DNA of 64,000 bases, from IMG/VR virus record IMGVR_UViG_3300031772_000001, positions 1 through 64,000 of that record. One strand, given 5' to 3'. Position numbers and translations under genes: made by a program. Numbering within the stretch: the stretch's first letter is position 1; every line of letters starts with the position of its first letter. This document shows, in pieces, positions 4,482 through 62,211 of this stretch. Under the pieces are notes generated by a model. The model was not told the DNA's origin, did no database searches, and saw nothing but the letters and a program-made list of their open reading frames with translations. The stretch is from a virus.

Positions 4482-5600
4482 TCACCTCAATCCTGTTGTT
4501 CCTGTAGGATATGCTAATTCATTTCTCATCTGCAATAAAGGCCATTTAGCAGAACTTGCGGGGACAGGTGTACCCACAGTAATAAAAGTGGAAGGAGAAT
4601 CTTGTGAGTTGTATGATGTACTTATCCAACTAGCGGATCTGACTACTGAGGATACCCTGTGCTCATCAATTCTTCCCGGCCAACCTGTATCAAAACCATC
4701 TACAGATTGTTTCCACGCATAACGATTCTGTGTAATGTCCCTTGACCAAGAAGTATCCTGGGCGACATACGCCCCATTTCCGTATGATTTTATGGTAGTT
4801 GACGCATTATCATACGATACAGTTATATGTCCCCAATTGGACGATGATGTATAAAACACCCCCGTATTAAATGAAGTAATATTGCTGTCGCCATTGACCT
4901 TGAACTGATCATCATCCCCGTTACCCCAGAGAACAAAATCACAGCTATATCCGGCAGTGCCACCACCCACAAGTCCACGTTGAGTATCATAATATGTAAT
5001 GCTTTGCCATACTTCAACGGTTATTGTAGAAGGATTTGCAAAGGAATTACTCGCAAACCCAGAATTGTAAAAATATGTTGTAGTATTCTGACATTTACCT
5101 ATTTTGCCATCTTCTTCAGTTGACCCCGTTCCAAACTCAGTTCCTGTATGTCCATTGCCTGTTGCATCGGTTAATGTCGTTGTACCGTCCCCATGCCATA
5201 CCAGCATGAAACTATTTGACCATACGGCATTCCTTCCATATGTGTCAGTGACAGCAGGCATTGATGCTGAGGAATTATTGTACCAAACGTAGATGACAGT
5301 ATCTACAGTTGAAGATACTGAAGTTACCTTAACCCAAATTTCAGCTAAACCATTGGCGGGATTATTGTCTCGTGTGAACGAGACTACTTCCACGGGGAGT
5401 TGAGTAGCGCCAGCGGAATCTGAGGAAAACCTAATATCCCCGCCGTCTGAATTGGCAGGGTAGCTGCCATCAGCATCGAACATCTCGGAGGGAAGATTAC
5501 CTACAGTAAATAAAACAGGGAAGTTAGATTGATCTGCACTTACTTTAGTGTGATCAATTGTTAATGAACATCTGCGGTTCCATCCTGAAGGGAAAGCCAT
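4482..5600 (-). CDS. DUF2341 domain plus LamG/concanavalin-A-like lectin domain protein
   Basis: NFPVL...DGGDIRFS...EIWVKV...IYVWYNN (DUF2341-like); WGHITVSYD...GRIDEHRVSSVVRSASWI (LamG-like). Confidence 0.8.
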   Translation of the reverse strand: MAFPSGWNRRCSLTIDHTKVSADQSNFPVLFTVGNLPSEMFDADGSYPANSDGGDIRFSSDSAGATQLPVEVVSFTRDNNPANGLAEIWVKVTSVSSTVDTVIYVWYNNSSASMPAVTDTYGRNAVWSNSFMLVWHGDGTTTLTDATGNGHTGTEFGTGSTEEDGKIGKCQNTTTYFYNSGFASNSFANPSTITVEVWQSITYYDTQRGLVGGGTAGYSCDFVLWGNGDDDQFKVNGDSNITSFNTGVFYTSSSNWGHITVSYDNASTTIKSYGNGAYVAQDTSWSRDITQNRYAWKQSVDGFDTGWPGRIDEHRVSSVVRSASWISTSYNSQDSPSTFITVGTPVPASSAKWPLLQMRNELAYPTGTTGLR

Positions 5601-6192: not shown

Positions 6193-7641
6193 TTAAATTT
6201 TTGAGATAAGTTCAGCAGTCACCCAATCGCACGTAAACACATCAGAATCTGTAGTCAAATCCACTTGTAACGTGAGAGCTTGATCTTTATTTGTAGCCAG
6301 TGATCCTCCCGACCCATAGGCGCGGTCAGCATCGTGCCATAGATACCCATCTATATTTGTACCAGCAAGATAAATATGGCCACAAAGAACTATTGGTGTA
6401 TTACCCGTTGCTGCAAGTGCTACTACAGATGTACCGTTCCAGCACAACCTAAAAGTTCCGTTCGCACTACCTGTTGTCCTTCTAACACCGGCCTGTAACC
6501 TCAGTATCCTATTATCTACTAAGGTATAAGCTGGAACAGTTATTGTTTTCAGTATTTGAAATCCAGCACCAGTTGCAGTTGAAGCTGTAGTAGAAACCGC
6601 TATCGCCTGTACAACCTCTTTGTAGTTTATTTTCCAAGTTTGCGCGCTTGCCGTAAAATCAAGAACAAATTCAAAACGATCCGTAACTCTGTGGTACAGG
6701 TTAGTATTGGTCACATCATTTATTACTGACGGTGATAAGGACCAACACGCCTCTGTGTTCAACTTCAATCTTTTCCACCTATTGACTGAAGCACCAGATC
6801 CATAATTTTCGTCGGAGGTTCCCCAAGCATCCAATGACCACATCAAGGAAGATAGATACCCAAAGTTAGATAGCTCTTGTCCTACAACACTAGCATTGGC
6901 TATAACTCCACCGCCTGCTACATTTATCGGATATGAACGCCTAAGACTAACAGCCTTCGCCCCGCGAGCATACCAGTCAGTCTTAGTCTCGTATCCCCCA
7001 GAACCAGAATAAGCTGCTGTGTTTATTGCAAAACTTTCCAAAAGAATCCAATCAATTGATCTCAAATGTGAGGAAACTAATGTTGGATTATAAGTAGAGT
7101 TTGGATAGCTTACATCGTTTGCTATGCCTAACAAGTGATCGGTGTTCCAAGCGTTAGCAAATGCCAACTTTGAGTATGTCCGACTATGCACATAGTCCAA
7201 CATAGTATTAAACTGCGCCCTGGTTACAGTATAGTCATATCCTGACTCATCCATGAACACACCATCAACTTGTAGTGTATTCCACTGATCTACTTTTGTC
7301 TGAAAATTTACCAAAGTTTGGTTCGCAATGACATAACCAAAAATCAAGCATTTTGGATTAAGAACTTTGATTCTGGGTATTATTATCTGGGTATTGACAT
7401 AATCAGGATGTGTAGGGGATTGTATAGTGTCACCAAAAACAATAAGATCATACTTAGCAAAATCCTGTGCCACAGCTTCATTATACCAAGCATTTTGAGC
7501 ACTATTAAAACTATTTAGATAGCCATAGTAAATCAAAAGATTCTTAGGTGAAACCTCTTGTTTTTCCAGAGTATTTACCAAGTTAGATATAGTTTGTATA
7601 TCTTGACTCATCTGTCTATTTAGATACTTTTCACTTGGCAT
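6193..7641 (-). CDS. TIM-barrel glycoside hydrolase-like protein (GH114/GH135-like) with C-terminal beta domain
   Basis: FAKYDLIVFG...IFGYV...VDGVFMDE...WILLES pattern. Confidence 0.55.
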   Translation of the reverse strand: MPSEKYLNRQMSQDIQTISNLVNTLEKQEVSPKNLLIYYGYLNSFNSAQNAWYNEAVAQDFAKYDLIVFGDTIQSPTHPDYVNTQIIIPRIKVLNPKCLIFGYVIANQTLVNFQTKVDQWNTLQVDGVFMDESGYDYTVTRAQFNTMLDYVHSRTYSKLAFANAWNTDHLLGIANDVSYPNSTYNPTLVSSHLRSIDWILLESFAINTAAYSGSGGYETKTDWYARGAKAVSLRRSYPINVAGGGVIANASVVGQELSNFGYLSSLMWSLDAWGTSDENYGSGASVNRWKRLKLNTEACWSLSPSVINDVTNTNLYHRVTDRFEFVLDFTASAQTWKINYKEVVQAIAVSTTASTATGAGFQILKTITVPAYTLVDNRILRLQAGVRRTTGSANGTFRLCWNGTSVVALAATGNTPIVLCGHIYLAGTNIDGYLWHDADRAYGSGGSLATNKDQALTLQVDLTTDSDVFTCDWVTAELISKI

Positions 7642-7650
7642 AGAATTCCT

Positions 7651-7854
7651 CTACTTAACTGTTCTTCTCTTCGATTTAAGATCAGAAATATCCCACACTC
7701 TCATACAAATAACCTTTCCCCCATGATCACCTGCATACCAACAATCTCGAAGCTCTAAATCACAGTTCCCGTACTCTACATTATGCTTTTTCTTATGATA
7801 ACATTCTGTCTTATCTGTGCATTTCTTATAATAAGAACAACGAAACTTTGTCAT
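7651..7854 (-). CDS. Small Cys-rich hypothetical protein
   Basis: Fills the gap between genes, same strand. Confidence 0.55.
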   Translation of the reverse strand: MTKFRCSYYKKCTDKTECYHKKKHNVEYGNCDLELRDCWYAGDHGGKVICMRVWDISDLKSKRRTVK

Positions 7855-42987: not shown

Positions 42988-43275
42988 CTACCTCAATAAC
43001 GCACTCTCAAACCGTAGACATTTCTCTTTTTCTCTCCTTAATTCCTTTACTTCCCGAAACTTACTTGCATTATCAACCTCTAACCAAGTAACCCTCTGTT
43101 GTAACCTGTCAATCTCTTTTCTTAACCAAGCAACCGCATCCGAAGTACCATTACGCTTATTATCCTTACTCTCACTCTCATTCTCACTTGTAAGTCTTTT
43201 TGCAATTCCGAGTAACCAAGTGTTATCCCTGAGATACACACGCGAATTTACAACAACATCAATGCCCCGCACCAC
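42988..43275 (-). CDS. Hypothetical coiled-coil protein
   Basis: Its TAG stop overlaps the first GTTG of the cassette array. Confidence 0.55.
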   Translation of the reverse strand: MVRGIDVVVNSRVYLRDNTWLLGIAKRLTSENESESKDNKRNGTSDAVAWLRKEIDRLQQRVTWLEVDNASKFREVKELRREKEKCLRFESALLR

Positions 43276-43477
43276 AAACCTCTTTCAATTCAACTCTCTT
43301 ATTCCATTGCGTCAAGGCAGGATAATGCATAACAACCCCACATCCACTACACTTCACAACCTGCTCATTCCCTACATCATTCTGTATCGACTCCCAATCT
43401 ATATACGCTTTCCCGCCACAAAAAGGACATGGAAGTAACTTCTTCTTGTCTCTATCGTTAATTAAACCTTCCCACAT
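43259..43477 (-). CDS. Second Lar-like zinc-ribbon protein
   Basis: LLPCPFCGGKA...KCSGCG...QWNKR. Confidence 0.65.
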   Translation of the reverse strand: MWEGLINDRDKKKLLPCPFCGGKAYIDWESIQNDVGNEQVVKCSGCGVVMHYPALTQWNKRVELKEVCGAGH

Positions 43478-54754: not shown

Positions 54755-55243
54755 CTATGATGCAACATCAAAAAATGTAGTATCATTCTCTGCTCCTTTT
54801 CTATCTCTCCGATCCTCCAACATCGAAAAATTCTGTGACTTCATTCTTTCAAAAAATGTCTGATCCTTTAGATGATCATACAAATACGGCATAAACACCT
54901 CTATAAACTCCGCTTGATCCAATTCAATCAAGCTCATCTGCACATCAATCCAATCCGATAAAAGCCGCCACGCCGTCCTCTCTGCTTGTGCGGCAATGCG
55001 ATCCAATGTACCCTCGTGCAGCTTCTTAATCTCCTTCTTCAGCCTTTCCTCCACCCTATCAATACGCGCAGGCAATCTAAATGACATATCACGATTATTT
55101 ACAAATATCACAAAAGCAACACCAACAAGTTTCCCCTTCTCTGCCATCTTCACAACAGTCTTCGCACCAGCAGCTATAAGCCGGTCCTCAATATGCTGCA
55201 CTGACTTACTTGCGGAAACCATCGAAGTGTAATTCTTTATCAT
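54755..55243 (-). CDS. Conserved phage hypothetical protein
   Basis: MIKNYTS...FRLPA...QAERTAWRLLSDW. Confidence 0.7.
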   Translation of the reverse strand: MIKNYTSMVSASKSVQHIEDRLIAAGAKTVVKMAEKGKLVGVAFVIFVNNRDMSFRLPARIDRVEERLKKEIKKLHEGTLDRIAAQAERTAWRLLSDWIDVQMSLIELDQAEFIEVFMPYLYDHLKDQTFFERMKSQNFSMLEDRRDRKGAENDTTFFDVAS

Positions 55244-57230
55244 CAAGAACCCTTTGTAATAAGCAACCTTTTCTTTACCCAAGAAGATACTTCTTTTTCT
55301 TTTGCTTCTGCATTACTCGCATCTATAACAGTCTGCTTCTCCCACCACTCATCAACCTCCTTCGGCACAACAATACCTGCCGCTTCTGCTTCATGCAAAA
55401 CATCAAGTATCTCACGAGGAGGAAGAATATCACAAAGCATTTTCTTTTAAGCTCCAATCCCATTACCAACAGAAGTCAAAACATCAATAGCCCTCTTAAC
55501 TTCCTCTTGTTGCTTTAACACTTCATTAAAATCATCTATATCTCGAACAGAATCATACCTTTTCATAATAAACTCCAACTCGTCATACCTATTCTGAAGG
55601 TATCTAATAGTATGTGGGAATTTCTTGTAATTCATATTTTCCTCTACAACTCCCAAATAAACATGTCCGTACCAAATCGCCTTCCTAAAGTCCCCAAATA
55701 AATTGCTTTTTGAACAGGAGTAACTACGTCCGGGTGAGAATCACTAACACTAAACAAATCAAAGGATGGGTGACTATCTGTAGACTGATTTTCCTTGATA
55801 GCATACTCTGTAGCAACTGCCTTTGAACCTACAGTGTAGATACTGCCAGTAACATTATTCCGAACAAGATACAACATACAAATCCTCCTTTATATTGCCA
55901 GCCAATTACTAATCTCCGTAACAACTGCACTTATCTCCCGAACATCAGCATCATCTACCCTATCCAAAAAATAAAAAGCCTCACAAATAGTCTGCCTCAA
56001 CTCAGCAACCGTAAGCTCTGAAACCTTCTTCTCAACACCATCAAAAACACCAGCAATTACTTCAGTTGGCTTATACCTCAAAGGTATAATAATTCTCTTT
56101 TTGATATTTTTCATAGTTAATCCCTCTTCCTTCTCAGAATCTTCTTGACCTCTTCAATCTCCTGCTTGTTAGGACTCCTATACTGATCATCCAACACCCA
56201 CGCATTCCCATTCTCAAGATCAAAACATCAACCATCCAGCACCACAACACCAATCACACTCGTAGGGAACCTTACACCCACAAGCAACAGTACATGCCTT
56301 ACTCGGCCCCACCGTATGCGCCGCACCATAATCCCGCTCACCCCAAAGTAAACTTGCCTGCTGCATCACAAACCCATAGCCCAACCTCTCACAAATCTGT
56401 TTTACCTGTGCAGTATGCAGCTTATTCATCCCGTCAATCCGACGCTGCAACGCCTCACTCGCCTTTATTTCTTTTTCACTTCTCATATTGTAGGCTCCAC
56501 AACAGGGACAATAATTGTAGCTTCACTTACAGCAATGCTAAGACCTTCAACAACAGGCTCAATAACTGGCTCGATAACTGGCTTAACCTCAGCAAGAACT
56601 TCCGGGGCAACTTCTTTTACAGTTTCCTCAACCACAACAGGAGGTGGAGGGTACATCTCATCCCAATTTGACGGCTTCACACCAACAACCTCAATGTCCT
56701 TCTCCTTGTAACCGTTCTTCTTCAGCCACTCCAACGCACGCTCCGATACATCAACAATGGTAGGAAAATCCTTACCACGATGAATCTGTGACACATGCGC
56801 GTAACCCCACGGAGTAGTCAACGTAACCGTTGTGGTCTTAGGCGGCAGCTTCTCTTCCTTCTTAGCCATTATTTATCTCCCTGTTCCTATTACAACGTGA
56901 TACAATCCCCACAGAACTGTCAACACAAAAGCCAAAAAATACGAGTCATCCTTACAAACCATAGACTGAATGCCTGTGATGATCCATGACAGGATCACCA
57001 CAGACAAACCAGGATGATTTAACATCGCCCTAACAACATCAAACACCTCACTCATCCTTTTTCTTTTCAAAAACAGGAATACCCTGACAACTCATCTCGT
57101 GCTGCACTCCCTCATGCACCACATGCACCGGCCTACGCTCACCATCAGGAAATTTCAAAAAAGAAACATCCTCCTCCGGGGTGCAATCCCGTTTGCAAAA
57201 ACCACAAATTACTTCTTGCTTGGACATCAA
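55243..57230 (-). other. Run of ~8 small hypothetical genes
   Basis: Abutting or overlapping ORFs: 55243-55440, 55447-55656, 55644-55877, 55890-56114, 56220-56486, 56483-56869, 56873-57070, 57048-57230. Confidence 0.55.
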
Positions 57231-57242
57231 AACCCCCTGTTA

Positions 57243-57878
57243 AATCACCATTACCATACCTGAAATCACCATACAACACCAATACTGGACTCCACATCAC
57301 ATAATTCTACTGCACATCACCACACCTTTACGTCACATGACATCACCCGACCGCACGTTACTATACCATCACCTAACTGGACAAAACCGCACGCCACTCC
57401 ACCGCACCGTCACATGACCACACCGAACGCCACTACACCATACCATAACTATACGATACCGCATAACAACTGCACCCCACCAACACTGAAATCCACTGCA
57501 ATCTACTGTACCAATACCTAACGTCACGCAAAGACACCTTATCTTCACCCAACCTGACAGTAGATAACTCCACGGAACGACACCAAACCAATACTGAACA
57601 TCACTCCAACAGACCGGACCCCACCCAACACAACTCAACCGTTACCGTACTCGACGTAACCCCACAAAACTCTACCATCACCAAATTGTACACAATCTCA
57701 CCGAACTCCACCGTCACATCATTGTACAGTAGATAACTCAACCATCACAATATCGTAACGAAACTCGATGTCACTTAACCCAACTTCACCATAACAGCAC
57801 GGAACGATACTGCACCCCACCGCACCAAACCATACCCTAACAGCACGGTATCACACCCCACGACACCCGACCATTACA
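57243..57878 (-). ncRNA. Pentamer-periodic (NNN-GT)n non-coding array, putative guide-RNA array
   Basis: Minus strand reads e.g. GGT ATGGT TTGGT GCGGT GGGGT GCAGT ATCGT TCCGT GCTGT TATGGT GAAGT...; starts right after the RAMP gene stop. Confidence 0.8.
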
Positions 57879-58583
57879 TTAAACTACTTTTGTCAAGGTG
57901 TAGTCATACCTTCCGTACATGCCTGAGTTACGCCACTGACCAATACCCATATACCGGGAAGAGTAATCCAGCAACGTCCTCAGCAACTCCTCGGTCAGTG
58001 TGAACCTTGGTGTCTCCAAGCACTGAATCTGACAATCAAAATGAGCACCCTCCTCAATCATCTCACTCCGCAACAGAAACACACGCGGCCCATCCTTACC
58101 TATCACACGTACTCCACGCTCCAGAAACCCAATCGGCTTATCTGTAATGAGGGGAATCCTTCTGGGATTGACATTAACTGTCCGTGTCACGTTGGCAAGA
58201 AAAGCAGTTACTTTCTCACCAACCTCAACAACATCATCACCATCACTATCATCACCCTTTTTCTTCTTCTTAGTCACCATCTTACCCGTTGCCAAACCAT
58301 TCAACGTAGACGCGGAATCCTTCAGGGCACCCTTCACAACATACGTATAGAGAAGAGGGTTCCCGTCTGCATCCCGATGAAAGCACGTAGTGCCCTTCTT
58401 CACCTCATCCGGCAACGAATCAATTTCTTCTTGAACCTGCTGCGGAGTAAGGTGTGGGTTCTCTTCCAAAATCTTCTTTATCAGATAGTCAAGGGCAATG
58501 GAATCATTGCCAGGCTGACTACCAAGAACCTGAGAATTGAACACCACACTCAAATCGTACACAGACTCTTTCAACAAAGACAT
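57879..58583 (-). CDS. Stand-alone Cas7-like RAMP-fold protein
   Basis: N-terminal strand LSVVFNSQVLGS; PLLYTYVVKGALKD (RAMP PxxxxxxxKGxxR-like); C-terminal Gly-rich loop GIGQWRNSGMYGRY. Confidence 0.75.
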   Translation of the reverse strand: MSLLKESVYDLSVVFNSQVLGSQPGNDSIALDYLIKKILEENPHLTPQQVQEEIDSLPDEVKKGTTCFHRDADGNPLLYTYVVKGALKDSASTLNGLATGKMVTKKKKKGDDSDGDDVVEVGEKVTAFLANVTRTVNVNPRRIPLITDKPIGFLERGVRVIGKDGPRVFLLRSEMIEEGAHFDCQIQCLETPRFTLTEELLRTLLDYSSRYMGIGQWRNSGMYGRYDYTLTKVV

Positions 58584-58690
58584 ACACCCATCCTTTGATT
58601 AAAGTTAAAATAACACCCATCCAATTCAGACATCCTTATAGTATACGTTATCCTCACCAAAAAACATCAGCTTGTCTTACTGCTATTAAT

Positions 58691-59278
58691 TTAGGCAACC
58701 AGAGACTCCTCAGACTCATCAACCGCCGGACCACGCACCACCACATAATCTGAAAAAATGTCCTCTATGATCTCAGCCGTAGTCCTCTTGTCATACCAGA
58801 CGTTCAATTCAGTAATACGGTTGTTGCACTCCTTGGCATCATCAATGTATTTCTTAGCCTTACTTAACGCACCACACCCCAAGGCATCAAAAACTTTCCT
58901 CAAAATCGTCGCAGCAGTGTCTTCACCATCAACAAGAACTGTGTTTTCTTTTGAATCTAAAATAAATTCATGGAAAACTCGCTTTGAAAAGACAGGCACC
59001 TCCGACTTTGGCAGCTTCCGAAGATAGTAAAATTCCCGCATCAAGCGTGGAAGATCGGCCTCCCGAACAGACTCCGGGGATAAGCTATACTCTGGCATCA
59101 CCGAATCATCACGCACGAGCTTCTGTATCATCACAAGATATACCTTGTCACCAACGGCAATCTGTGACCAAAAAGGCTTCTGATTCAGTGCCTCAAGCAC
59201 CAAATCGTCCTCAGCAATCAGCATGTACTTCTTATCATAAGACAAGAACCTCTTCTTGAACAACTCAAGATCCTGCAT
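58691..59278 (-). CDS. Hypothetical protein
   Basis: 195-aa ORF. Confidence 0.65.
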   Translation of the reverse strand: MQDLELFKKRFLSYDKKYMLIAEDDLVLEALNQKPFWSQIAVGDKVYLVMIQKLVRDDSVMPEYSLSPESVREADLPRLMREFYYLRKLPKSEVPVFSKRVFHEFILDSKENTVLVDGEDTAATILRKVFDALGCGALSKAKKYIDDAKECNNRITELNVWYDKRTTAEIIEDIFSDYVVVRGPAVDESEESLVA

Positions 59279-60083
59279 TGATTACCCCACTTCTTAGAAC
59301 ACGAATACGTTCTTCTGCTACCTGACAATACTTCTCTTCCTTCTCAATCCCAATAAAATTTCTTTTGGTATTTATACAAGCAATCGCAGTTGTTCCTGAT
59401 CCTATGCAATTATCAAGAACAACATCATTTTCATTTGTGTAAGTACGAATAAGATACTCAAACAATGCTACAGGTTTTTGGGTTGGGTGAAGCCCCGCCT
59501 CCCTCGCATGATATGCTGTTGAAAATTCTACAACAGAACGAGGATACCCGACATCAGTACCTACAGAACGAAAAACCCCTTCCGTAAATTTACCACACGT
59601 CTCAGTCATCACTGTTTTTTGTGCTGCTCTATGACTTGGCTTTACAAAAAATTGTGGGTTATATGGAGGAACACCATAACAAAAAATAAGAATATCCTCA
59701 TGCTGTCGAAGAGGACGCTTTTTTGCATTTAAGAACCCGACAGTATTAGACTTTCTCCAACACATATCATACTTAAAGTTTGAGACATTGCTCATCACTA
59801 AAGCAGAAGTAAATGGCTGTGACGCAGTTAGTACAATGACACCATTACAGATTCTCTCATACTCCTTCCATAACGGCTCAAATGGAATAACTGTGTCCCA
59901 TTTACACTGTGTAGTTCCATAAGGCAAATCACATAACACCATATCAATACTCTTATCAGGTATTAATGGCATTACCTCAAGACAATCACCATGAATTATT
60001 GTATTTATTTGCAACGCACCATCTCCCGTTAGATACTCTCCCCGGCCACGGTGAAGTTGTATTGCCAGCCCTTCTCTGTCCAC
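59265..60083 (-). CDS. DNA amino-methyltransferase (N6A/N4C, beta-type order); start may be downstream
   Basis: IHGDCLE...LCDLPYG...HPTQKPVAL...VLDNCIGSGTT...GIEKE. Confidence 0.92.
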   Translation of the reverse strand: MDREGLAIQLHRGRGEYLTGDGALQINTIIHGDCLEVMPLIPDKSIDMVLCDLPYGTTQCKWDTVIPFEPLWKEYERICNGVIVLTASQPFTSALVMSNVSNFKYDMCWRKSNTVGFLNAKKRPLRQHEDILIFCYGVPPYNPQFFVKPSHRAAQKTVMTETCGKFTEGVFRSVGTDVGYPRSVVEFSTAYHAREAGLHPTQKPVALFEYLIRTYTNENDVVLDNCIGSGTTAIACINTKRNFIGIEKEEKYCQVAEERIRVLRSGVINAGS

Positions 60084-60911: not shown

Positions 60912-61102
60912 GTTATCTCCTTTTTCACCTTATCAAGTTCCGTCTCAAACATGTAGACATTCTTTGCTTCACCATTCAAAAAGTACCTTGTCTCGTACTG
61001 CACCCCAGACTTTGAAACCCAGACAGAAACAATGACTCCAATAGTGTCAAGCTCTTTTATTTTAACCCTCTCAAACAAATCAAATGCTGTCTCTACCCTC
61101 AT
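60908..61102 (-). CDS. Small hypothetical protein
   Basis: ATGA overlaps on both sides. Confidence 0.6.
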   Translation of the reverse strand: MRVETAFDLFERVKIKELDTIGVIVSVWVSKSGVQYETRYFLNGEAKNVYMFETELDKVKKEIT

Positions 61103-62211
61103 CGTGCAGCCGTCCTATTCCGGTCAACAAGTGATCCACTGGACTTCTGACTTCCTGAAGACATTGCAGGGGCACCATTCCTGAACTGATTATAGACCAA
61201 CCACAACAACGCCTGTAGTGTGGTGTCATTCCTGAAAGAATTAACTGCCCAATCCTGCATCAAAATAGTGAAAAGTTTGAAAATGTCCTGATTCCAAACA
61301 GCACTGACCTTCTTGTAAAGATCCTCAAAGTAAGAAGACCTTATCTTATTGCACGAGATACTGTAGATCAAATTGTTTACAACAAGATATATGTCGTTCT
61401 TAACACACTCCAACATGCATGTAACCAACTCAGCTATTGTCTCAGCAACCACATTCTCATCTGCCACTCGTACCGCCAGCAGGTAATCAAGTACCTTACT
61501 CTCCGCAGACCTGACAGAAGCAAAAAACTTGTCCTTGTCCTCCATCATCGCATACAGATCAAGAAACATGACCGAATCCCGAACGTGCCCCTTACTTGTT
61601 ATTGCTATGTAATAAAGAATCTCGTCAGATATTGTGATGTTTTCTGACTTCACAATCCTTTTCAGATTCTCGGTAATCTCCTCCACAGTCAACGTGCGAA
61701 ACACCAACTCAACTGACCGAGAACGAATAGTATTCTCAATCTTCTCCACATCTGTAGAACAAAAAATTACAAACATGTTCTCAGGTAAATCTTCCAGCAC
61801 CTTTAACAACTGTCCTTGTGCTGGTTTAGATATAAGATGTCCCTCATCAAACACAATCACACGCCAATCACACACTGTAGACGCAGTAAAAAACACCCCC
61901 TTCATTTCCTTAATAGCATCAACATTACCTACATCTCCTGAATCAAACTCTTGGTAGAACGGGACAAACGAAAGATCCGATTGACAAATATCACAAATAC
62001 CACATGGCTTCTTTTCTGAATGTGATTTACAATTCAGACCACGAGCAAGCAAACGGGCAGATGTTGTTTTTCCTGTTCCAAAATCTCCAGACATAACAAG
62101 ACATCTTGGCGCATTGATAGGATTCCGTATGATGGACCTAAGAATCTCCACAGGAGCATCTTGCCCGTAAAGCTCATCAAATATTCTGGACCTATACTGC
62201 TGTGTGAACAT
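61099..62211 (-). CDS. dnaX: DNA polymerase III gamma/tau-like clamp-loader ATPase
   Basis: QYRSRIFDELYGQ; GDFGTGKTT; LNC...PCGICDIC; VFDEGH; LLKVLED; TIRSRS; GHVRD. Confidence 0.88.
   Translation of the reverse strand: MFTQQYRSRIFDELYGQDAPVEILRSIIRNPINAPRCLVMSGDFGTGKTTSARLLARGLNCKSHSEKKPCGICDICQSDLSFVPFYQEFDSGDVGNVDAIKEMKGVFFTASTVCDWRVIVFDEGHLISKPAQGQLLKVLEDLPENMFVIFCSTDVEKIENTIRSRSVELVFRTLTVEEITENLKRIVKSENITISDEILYYIAITSKGHVRDSVMFLDLYAMMEDKDKFFASVRSAESKVLDYLLAVRVADENVVAETIAELVTCMLECVKNDIYLVVNNLIYSISCNKIRSSYFEDLYKKVSAVWNQDIFKLFTILMQDWAVNSFRNDTTLQALLWLVYNQFRNGAPAMSSGSQKSSGSLVDRNRTAAR

What the first reader, a model, noticed from the sequence alone, without database searches (positions are those of the whole stretch)
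57243..57878. Higher-order punctuation and reused blocks within the pentamer array
Seen: the 5-nt phase is broken about 16 times by a 6-nt unit, mostly NN-YGGT (AATGGT, TATGGT, GATGGT, GACGGT, AACGGT, ATTGGT...). This splits the array into ~15 segments, mostly 5-9 pentamers long (~30-50 nt, the scale of a crRNA). Exact blocks are reused: ACAGTAGATAACTC at 57557-57570 and 57726-57739, and TAACAGCACGG near 57792 and 57838. Inference: the hexamers mark processing sites or guide boundaries, and guides diversify by in-phase recombination rather than spacer acquisition.
Basis: partly seen in the sequence, partly recalled or inferred. Interest (0 to 1): 0.72.

Follow-up and report, generated by a model that had tools for sequence, protein, structure and literature searches.

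The report
Guide-RNA array of a phage VIPR system
The pentamer array is the guide-RNA array of a phage VIPR system, an RNA-guided DNA-silencing system described in 2026 preprints, and its 6-base interruptions are conserved joints between short guide modules that related phages gain, lose and shuffle whole.

Summary
The punctuation is real and far from chance. On the minus strand, 57243-57878 reads NNNGT pentamers, with 17 hexamers and no tetramer. Fifteen of the 17 hexamers are NNNGGT. Their spacing is regular (13 of 16 gaps are 5-10 units; permutation P about 1e-4).

The reused 14-mer and 11-mer sit where stated. A 14-mer that long turns up in 15-19% of shuffled arrays, so block reuse is marginal.

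The array starts at the stop codon of a 234-aa gene whose model folds like Cas7/Csm3. At least 554 viral loci encode relatives. In 73 of the 80 fetched, a 5-nt-periodic array follows the gene, with the same share of hexamers (about 1 in 7).

This is VIPR (bioRxiv 10.64898/2026.04.26.720920): a Vipr RAMP protein plus pentamer-repeat vrRNAs. That preprint mentions "staggered" arrays offset by 1 nt but did not test them by RNA-seq.

New here: in related phages the hexamer-bounded modules are the units of gain, loss and shuffling, and the joint maps to the invariant GG.

Whether the RNA is cut there is untested. No target was found under any pairing rule tried. Other notes of this scan flagged the same stretch before.

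The parts
57879..58583 (-). vipr gene: 234-aa single-RRM RAMP (Cas7-like) protein, the presumed partner of the array RNA
   Evidence: AF2 model has pLDDT 89. Foldseek top hits are type VII Cas7, Csm3 and Cas7-11 (E about 1e-8, TM about 0.5). hhalign to the SUSP1 Vipr gives E 9e-5 and probability 59%, with the G-loop aligned (GIGQWR against GVGDWR). It is the only copy in the genome.
57243..57878 (-). vrRNA array: about 121 units of NNNGT (xGY/NN in VIPR terms), 17 of them hexamers, starting at the vipr stop codon and ending at the ribosome-binding site of the next gene
   Evidence: It is the only strongly 5-nt-periodic stretch in the 167,660-bp genome (one weak window at 43261). No terminator-like site lies between vipr and the array. 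No Rfam family matches, so no hammerhead.
57834..57839 (-). First internal GG junction hexamer (TAGGGT). The other 16 hexamers lie at 57788-93, 57747-52, 57741-46, 57710-15, 57674-79, 57638-43, 57587-92, 57536-41, 57510-15, 57479-84, 57463-68, 57442-47, 57406-11, 57365-70, 57324-29 and 57278-83.
   Evidence: Coordinates. GG enrichment and regular spacing. 57747-52 (TATTGT) and 57463-68 (TGTTAT) are atypical; the second can be re-read by eye as TGCGGT one unit later.
57589..57639 (-). Example of a long module (GG junction to GG junction, 51 nt, 10 variable dinucleotides), used for target scans
   Evidence: Scans gave no match.
57538..57588 (-). Second long module (51 nt). It holds one copy of the 14-nt block GAGTTATCTACTGT (57557-57570); the other copy is at 57726-57739.
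   Evidence: Scans.
57048..57230 (-). Small downstream ORF (60 aa, cysteine pairs) directly after the array; a possible accessory gene, but not conserved in relatives
   Evidence: no family hit. No homologue beside vipr in any fetched locus. A terminator-like hairpin lies at 57086-57074.

Best explanation
This is a VIPR locus (Viral Interference Programmable Repeat) in a complete 168-kb T4-like phage: a vipr gene followed by a "staggered", tail-less vrRNA array.

Inferred from the published SUSP1 system: the array is transcribed on the minus strand, probably together with vipr. One Vipr protomer binds each pentamer. It holds the conserved G-Y and exposes the variable bases, which pair with double-stranded DNA of a competing mobile element and silence it.

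Shown here: the hexamers are joints between successive guide modules. Each module runs from G-Y through n pentamers to N-N-N-G, so two modules meet as ...NNNG|GY... . This adds one base and shifts the 5-nt phase by +1. Modules are 6-10 units in this phage and 5-7 in the large gut-like clade. They are the evolutionary units of the array: related phages gain, lose and reorder them whole, with the break in the GG.

Inferred, not shown: each module acts as a separate guide, released by cleavage at or near the GG or simply delimiting one Vipr filament.
For: - Protein: Cas7/Csm3-like fold. The G-loop aligns with the experimentally characterised SUSP1 Vipr: W217 and R218 match its W178 and R179, and Q216 replaces the G1-reading D177 (residue roles from 10.64898/2026.04.26.720927). 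This replacement fits the loss of the first G in this clade's repeats.
- Gene-array linkage: at least 554 viral loci encode relatives. In 73 of the 80 fetched, a 5-nt-periodic array lies just downstream. vipr is the only gene shared by all of them.
- Repeat: N-N-N-G-Y, with three low-information positions. This is one of the alternative consensus forms (YNNNG) listed for VIPR.
- Punctuation across the family: 479 hexamers, 2960 pentamers and only 6 tetramers in non-redundant contexts. G at hexamer position 4 is 92%, against 28% at the matching pentamer position.
- Module length peaks at 5-7 units; only 6% are 4 units or fewer.
- Modularity: the same modules recur in different orders and contexts.
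- Junction mapping: with an unrelated upstream neighbour, hexamer base 6 stays with the downstream module (identity 0.98, background 0.67). With an unrelated downstream neighbour, bases 2-3 stay with the upstream module (0.98 and 0.97, background 0.82 and 0.36).
- Clean indels between near-identical arrays are 26, 124 and 154 nt, that is one or four whole modules.
- Literature: staggered vrRNA arrays with a 1-nt offset are described in fig. S18 of 10.64898/2026.04.26.720920.
Against: - No RNA data: transcription, processing and binding by Vipr are all inferred.
- No target was found. The two longest modules gave no perfect 18-20-nt match under the 1-nt-skip rule in IMG/VR or GTDB genomes. Five unrelated, chance-level hits came from JGI metagenomes.
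- Nothing matched in the phage's own genome or in the two large relatives fetched whole, under five pairing rules.
- A widespread gut-clade module gave nothing under the NNN rules, and only random hits under NN with a 1-nt skip.
- Modules here carry only 12-20 variable-dinucleotide bases (10-14 in the gut-like clade), fewer than the 18-32 of the tested type II vrRNAs.
- No conserved vap accessory gene.
- Sequence homology to the SUSP1 Vipr is weak (probability 59%).
Confidence: 0.85

Rival explanations
1. It is a VIPR array, but the hexamers are not guide boundaries. The whole tract is one long RNA coated by a continuous Vipr filament. The extra base about every 6-7 units is a slack or register-reset nucleotide, needed once per helical turn of the filament or per two turns of target DNA.
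For: The SUSP1 Vipr filament has six subunits per turn free and five when DNA-bound, close to the modal module of 5-7 units. Seven units at 3 bp each is 21 bp, about two DNA turns (inference). No tail, ribozyme or terminator separates modules.
Against: Module length varies from 4 to 10 units within one array, which a structural ruler would not allow. Modules move independently between phages and keep their identity in new contexts. The tested type II vrRNAs run 12-15 repeats with no hexamer, so a filament does not need slack.
Confidence: 0.1
2. The array works as DNA or as a protein decoy, not as a guide. It could be a periodic binding platform for the RAMP-like protein or a host factor, with the 5-bp and 36-bp periodicity serving DNA geometry. 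Or it could be a C-rich antisense Rho-loading tract.
For: No target was found under any rule. The plus strand is C-rich and G-poor.
Against: The partner protein has the RNA-binding RAMP fold and G-loop of Vipr and Cas7. The variable positions evolve fastest (0.108 per site against 0.025 at the G), as expected for programmable bases and not for a fixed binding site. The array strand always equals the gene strand in the parsed loci. Homologous systems have been shown experimentally to be RNA-guided.
Confidence: 0.04
3. It is a degenerate or novel CRISPR-type array whose hexamers are vestigial repeats, served by a solo Cas7.
For: Cas7-like fold; modules of crRNA-like length; cassette-like gain and loss of modules.
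Against: There is no repeat-spacer structure: the only recurring element is a 6-nt junction with three conserved bases, and the "spacers" are themselves 5-nt periodic. No Cas1 in the complete genome. No other cas gene was conserved beside vipr in 74 loci.
Confidence: 0.01

Closest known systems
VIPR systems (Vipr protein plus vrRNA), bioRxiv 10.64898/2026.04.26.720920; structures in 10.64898/2026.04.26.720927; biology in 10.64898/2026.10.15.759431
   Same: A phage-encoded small single-RRM RAMP protein with a G-loop. An adjacent non-coding tract of tandem pentanucleotides with conserved G-Y and hypervariable bases. No CRISPR array and no Cas1. The repeat consensus (YNNNG) is one of those listed for VIPR. 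The continuous array with 1-nt offsets matches the preprint's description of "staggered" arrays.
   Different: No 3' tail or pseudoknot after each guide, and no per-guide promoter, unlike SUSP1 type II. The first G of GGY is degenerate except at module starts. Modules are shorter (6-10 repeats here, 5-7 in the gut-like clade, against 9-16). No recognisable vap gene. [quoted passage not shown]
Class 1 CRISPR-Cas backbone (Cas7/Csm3 on crRNA)
   Same: The RAMP fold. One protomer per fixed number of guide nucleotides. A thumb that breaks the guide into short paired segments. A multi-guide precursor array whose units are gained and lost as cassettes.
   Different: 5-nt rather than 6-nt periodicity, with sequence-specific recognition of G-Y in every unit. 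No long repeats, no Cas6-type hairpin, no Cas1/Cas2. The published VIPR target is dsDNA read with gaps, not a contiguous protospacer.
TRAP-type RNA recognition (11 GAG/UAG triplets spaced by 2-3 nt around a protein ring)
   Same: An oligomeric protein reads a short conserved motif repeated every 5-6 nt, with tolerated one-base variation in spacing.
   Different: An unrelated fold. TRAP sites are 11 repeats used for attenuation, not programmable arrays. This was considered only as an early analogy, from my own knowledge.

Membership tests
VIPR | Vipr protein: small RAMP with one RRM core, a glycine-rich loop and a thumb | tested here: met
   AF2 pLDDT 89. Foldseek hits to Cas7, Csm3 and Cas7-11 at E 1e-8. 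The invariant C-terminal G-loop GxGQWRNSGxG aligns with the SUSP1 Vipr G-loop (hhalign E 9e-5, probability 59%).
VIPR | Adjacent intergenic tandem pentanucleotide repeats, GGY/NN or a related consensus (NNNGG, YNNNG, NNNNG) | tested here: met
   About 121 units of N-N-N-G-T directly after the stop codon. The alternative consensus forms are quoted.
VIPR | Protein-array linkage conserved across relatives, mostly in viruses | tested here: met
   At least 554 viral loci. 73 of 80 fetched loci have a downstream array scoring above threshold. There are 2332 cluster representatives in the protein library.
VIPR | vap accessory gene beside vipr ("typically" present) | tested here: inconclusive
   No neighbour of the window's vipr has a homologue beside vipr in any other locus. 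vipr is the only gene shared by all 74. A lineage-specific small accessory gene cannot be excluded.
VIPR | vrRNA is expressed and co-purifies with Vipr | not testable with these tools
   No RNA or protein data are available. There is only indirect support: same strand as the gene and no terminator between them.
VIPR | Variable dinucleotides match a DNA target with one skipped base per repeat | tested here: inconclusive
   No perfect match for the two longest modules in IMG/VR or GTDB genomes. Five chance-level metagenome hits. Real modules scored no better than shuffled ones against the own genome and two relatives.
VIPR type II (SUSP1-like) | Each vrRNA is 9-16 GGYNN repeats followed by a conserved structured tail of about 40 nt | tested here: not met
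   The SUSP1 locus was read directly and shows 15 GGTNN repeats plus a tail. The window array has no tails, and the modules abut at GG junctions.
VIPR with hammerhead-interspersed arrays | Hammerhead ribozymes between vrRNAs | tested here: not met
   No Rfam match at E of 1 or below in 55000-60000.
CRISPR-Cas | Repeat-spacer array and an adaptation module (Cas1) | tested here: not met
   No direct repeats beyond the 6-nt junction. Cas1 (PF01867) is absent from the complete genome, while the same search found it in 7 of 14 control genomes.

The most novel reading that the evidence does not exclude
In this tail-less "staggered" class of VIPR, the GG junction would be the only signal that divides a long precursor into minimal guides of 5-10 repeats. 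It would be cut or capped by Vipr itself or by a host RNase, without a Cas6, ribozyme or pseudoknot. The clade would also read its guides by a modified code: the G1-reading Asp is replaced by Gln, the first G is free, and purines are tolerated at the Y position in the gut-like clade. That modified code could explain why the published 1-nt-skip rule finds no targets here. If so, this is the simplest known multi-guide array and a second dialect of the VIPR code.
Probability: 0.3. Interest if true: 0.6.

Novelty: new member of a known kind. Interest (0 to 1): 0.4.

Why it matters
VIPR is a newly described RNA-guided DNA-recognition system. The preprints propose that it predates CRISPR, and they note its appeal as a very small programmable platform. 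Only the type II architecture, with one promoter and one structured tail per guide, has been dissected in detail.

This locus and its relatives (at least 554 viral loci) show a different architecture: many short guides strung together with a single extra G as the only punctuation. If the GG junction really defines guide ends, it gives a minimal rule for encoding multi-guide arrays. It would also give a natural record of how phages swap guide modules without an adaptation machine.

For the scan itself, the main value is that a striking "non-CRISPR guide code" finding is now placed in a known family.

Tried and rejected
- Rfam scan of 55000-60000, both strands: nothing.
- Pfam and PHROGs on vipr and nine neighbours: only a DNA methylase, a clamp-loader and one unnamed PHROG. 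Nothing matched vipr.
- blastn of the region against GenBank phages: only the methylase matched. tblastn of Vipr: four unannotated human-gut phages; SUSP1 was not reached by sequence.
Loci were fetched with the search for related loci instead.
- Coding reading of the array: rejected. A 5-nt period cannot be codon-based, and only short ORFs (89 aa or fewer) cross it.
- Early analogies were set aside once the RAMP fold and the VIPR preprints were found: a TRAP-like ring binder, a reverse-transcriptase template, Chi-site clusters and a Rho loading site.
- Target searches, all negative or at chance level:
  - all modules against 0.9 Mb of loci plus the genome under 12 rules (only the trivial period-5 rule rose, probably unmasked array remnants);
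  - self and near-self matches;
  - three whole large-phage genomes, cross-wise;
  - five viral-contig scans, one metagenome scan and one genome-contig scan;
  - no convergence of other modules on the loci retrieved.
- The two metagenome hits that encode the same nonapeptide have unrelated flanks, so they are chance.
- Global alignment of all array pairs was too noisy to place breakpoints. The strict version left only three events.
- Raw breakpoint offsets cluster at hexamers but are phylogenetically redundant. The deduplicated junction test was used instead.
- RNA folding of the array: MFE -177 kcal/mol, z -2.7 against mononucleotide shuffles, weaker than the vipr mRNA of equal length. No evidence of a defined structure.

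Full report
**1. What is in the sequence**

Genes around the site run on the minus strand. Read on that strand, 57243-57878 is a G/U-rich, C-poor tract. Identity is 0.48 at lag 5, falls back to 0.22-0.30 at lags 1-4 and 6-9, and reaches 0.49 at lag 36.

A dynamic-programming parse that tracks the phase gives 104-105 pentamers NNNGT, 17 hexamers and no tetramer. Position weights:
- three nearly uninformative positions;
- then G (88%);
- then T (98%).

Hexamers read N-A-Y-G-G-T. Fifteen of 17 have G at position 4, against 36 of 105 pentamers at the matching position (P = 7e-6, with a parse that gives no bonus for that G).

Gaps between hexamers are 9, 8, 1, 6, 7, 7, 10, 10, 5, 6, 3, 4, 7, 8, 8, 9 units. 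This is far more regular than random placement (CV 0.36, permutation P = 1e-4). The modal 7-unit module of 36 nt explains the lag-36 peak.

**2. The reused blocks**

On the minus strand the 14-mer is GAGT-TATCT-ACTGT, in phase in both copies.

When the columns or the units of the array are shuffled, a longest repeat of 14 or more appears in 15% and 19% of trials. The count of repeats of 11 nt or more (5) is only modestly above the 1.6-2.1 expected (P 0.02-0.06). I treat block reuse within this array as marginal.

**3. Context**

- The array begins at the stop codon of a 234-aa ORF (57879-58583, minus strand) and ends at the ribosome-binding site of a 60-aa ORF.
- No terminator-like site separates the ORF from the array.
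- No Rfam family matches.
- The genome is a complete 167,660-bp phage with terminal repeats. It has one copy of the gene, one strongly 5-nt-periodic tract (plus one weak window at 43261) and no Cas1.

**4. The protein**

Pfam gives nothing. A 25-sequence alignment shows an invariant C-terminal G-x-G-Q-W-R-N-S-G-x-G motif. The AlphaFold model is confident (pLDDT 89). Its best structural matches are Cas7 of type VII, Csm3 of type III-A and Cas7-11 (Foldseek E about 1e-8, TM about 0.5). The "solo Cas7/RAMP" idea in other notes of this scan is therefore borne out.

**5. The gene-array pair is a family**

At least 554 stretches of IMG/VR encode relatives, and a profile finds 2332 cluster representatives.

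In 73 of the 80 fetched loci, a 5-nt-periodic tract of 150-1330 nt lies downstream of the gene, on the same strand. It usually starts within 10 nt of the stop.

The repeat is N-N-N-G-Y throughout. The last base is T in the window and its closest relative L001, and C (or A) in a large clade whose GenBank relatives come from human faeces.

The share of hexamers is the same everywhere, 12-16% of units. Non-redundant contexts give 479 hexamers, 2960 pentamers and 6 tetramers, and position 4 of the hexamer is G in 92%.

Hexamer-to-hexamer length peaks at 5-7 units (481 of 638 internal segments). Only 6% are 4 units or fewer. A second bump lies at 13-14 units, where a junction has probably decayed.

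**6. Identification**

A full-text search found bioRxiv 10.64898/2026.04.26.720920, which describes VIPR systems:
- a phage-borne ancestral RAMP (Vipr);
- vrRNAs made of 9-16 YNNGG repeats plus a 3' tail;
- variable dinucleotides that pair with dsDNA while skipping every third target base;
- targets that are competing phages and satellites.

The methods list alternative repeats, NNNGG, YNNNG and NNNNG. The text and the fig. S18 legend describe "staggered arrays", in which vrRNAs derive from positions offset by 1 nt and the end of one marks the start of the next. This architecture was not among those confirmed by small-RNA sequencing.

Three further preprints cover structure, biology and language-model recovery of VIPR arrays, including non-canonical motifs such as WGT/NN.

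I read the SUSP1 locus directly (KT454805). It has GGTNN repeated 15 times and then a structured tail, with no hexamers. Its 195-aa Vipr aligns with the window's family at E 9e-5 and probability 59%, with the G-loops in register.

In that alignment, the SUSP1 residues W178 and R179, said to stack on G2 and contact Y3, are conserved (W217, R218). D177, which reads G1, is an invariant Gln in this family. That fits the degenerate first G of this clade's repeats. This is an inference from two points, not a test.

**7. What the hexamers are**

Writing each array as a string of hexamer-bounded modules shows that related phages share modules in different orders and numbers. For example, one array equals another plus four extra modules in the middle.

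To place the joint without assuming it, I took cases where the same module body sits next to unrelated neighbours, counted once per context:
- With an unrelated upstream neighbour, hexamer base 6 is unchanged (0.98, background 0.67), while base 3 drifts (0.59).
- With an unrelated downstream neighbour, bases 2 and 3 of the following hexamer are unchanged (0.98 and 0.97, background 0.82 and 0.36), while base 6 is near background (0.80).

The break therefore lies in the invariant GG. A module is G-Y, then n pentamers, then N-N-N-G. In VIPR notation this is a canonical GGY start, then xGY/NN units, then one trailing base. The "extra" base is simply where two complete modules abut.

Clean indels between near-identical arrays are 26, 124 and 154 nt, that is one or four whole modules.

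Among near-identical modules, the two bases after Y change most (0.108 per site), the third less (0.073) and the G least (0.025). This is what programmable NN positions would show.

**8. What could not be shown**

I found no target. The searches were:
- Perfect-match scans of the two longest window modules (18-20 specified bases, 1-nt skip). They returned nothing from IMG/VR or GTDB genomes, and five unrelated hits from JGI metagenomes.
- A widespread gut-clade module. It returned nothing under three-base readings and only scattered hits under the two-base reading. The other modules did not converge on those loci.
- Modules of the window, L001 and L019 against each other's complete genomes and their own. 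They match no better than shuffled modules.

Exact-pattern scanning is much less sensitive than the mismatch-tolerant search used in the preprint, so this result is inconclusive. Transcription, processing and binding are all untested. No vap-like gene is conserved.

**9. Verdict**

It is supported for "boundaries", untested for "processing sites", and only half supported for "recombination rather than acquisition".

The system was described in 2026 preprints, which also mention the staggered architecture. This is therefore a new member of a known kind.

The additions here are:
- the family-wide constancy of the punctuation;
- the narrow module-length distribution;
- the mapping of the exchange joint to the GG;
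- the Asp-to-Gln correlation with the relaxed repeat.

Noticed in passing
L007-L080 arrays (for example L020:5615-5999): In the gut-like clade, 30% of pentamers end in A instead of a pyrimidine (NNNGA), yet the unit just before each GG junction ends in C in 97%. This conflicts with the purine-excluding Y pocket described for the SUSP1 Vipr and hints at a position-dependent rule within modules.
   Followed up: partly
P0026, P0027 (protein library): Two Vipr-like proteins of 458 and 432 aa match the family profile twice, so they are tandem double-RAMP fusions. They could be a step towards multi-RAMP effectors.
   Followed up: no
L066, L072, L075; L057: In three loci the array starts about 600 nt after the vipr stop. 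L057 has a vipr homologue with no array within 2.6 kb downstream, only weak 5-nt-periodic stretches at 4541-4720 and 7601-7780.
   Followed up: no
L002:5612-5700, L003:1918-1960: A GC-rich hairpin sits between the vipr stop and the array in these two loci. The window has no such element.
   Followed up: no
window 58200-58290 (Vipr residues about 105-135): The window's Vipr carries a lysine- and aspartate-rich insertion that is absent from most relatives. A 9-nt tandem repeat is reported at 58216-58256.
   Followed up: no
window 43261-43360: The only other window in the genome that passes the lag-5 periodicity filter, and weakly (0.42). It lies just beyond the integron-like cassette row noted by other reports of this scan.
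   Followed up: no
window 59265-60083 and 61099-62211: An N6/N4 DNA methylase and a clamp-loader-like AAA+ ATPase lie upstream of the VIPR locus. They are ordinary phage genes.
   Followed up: no
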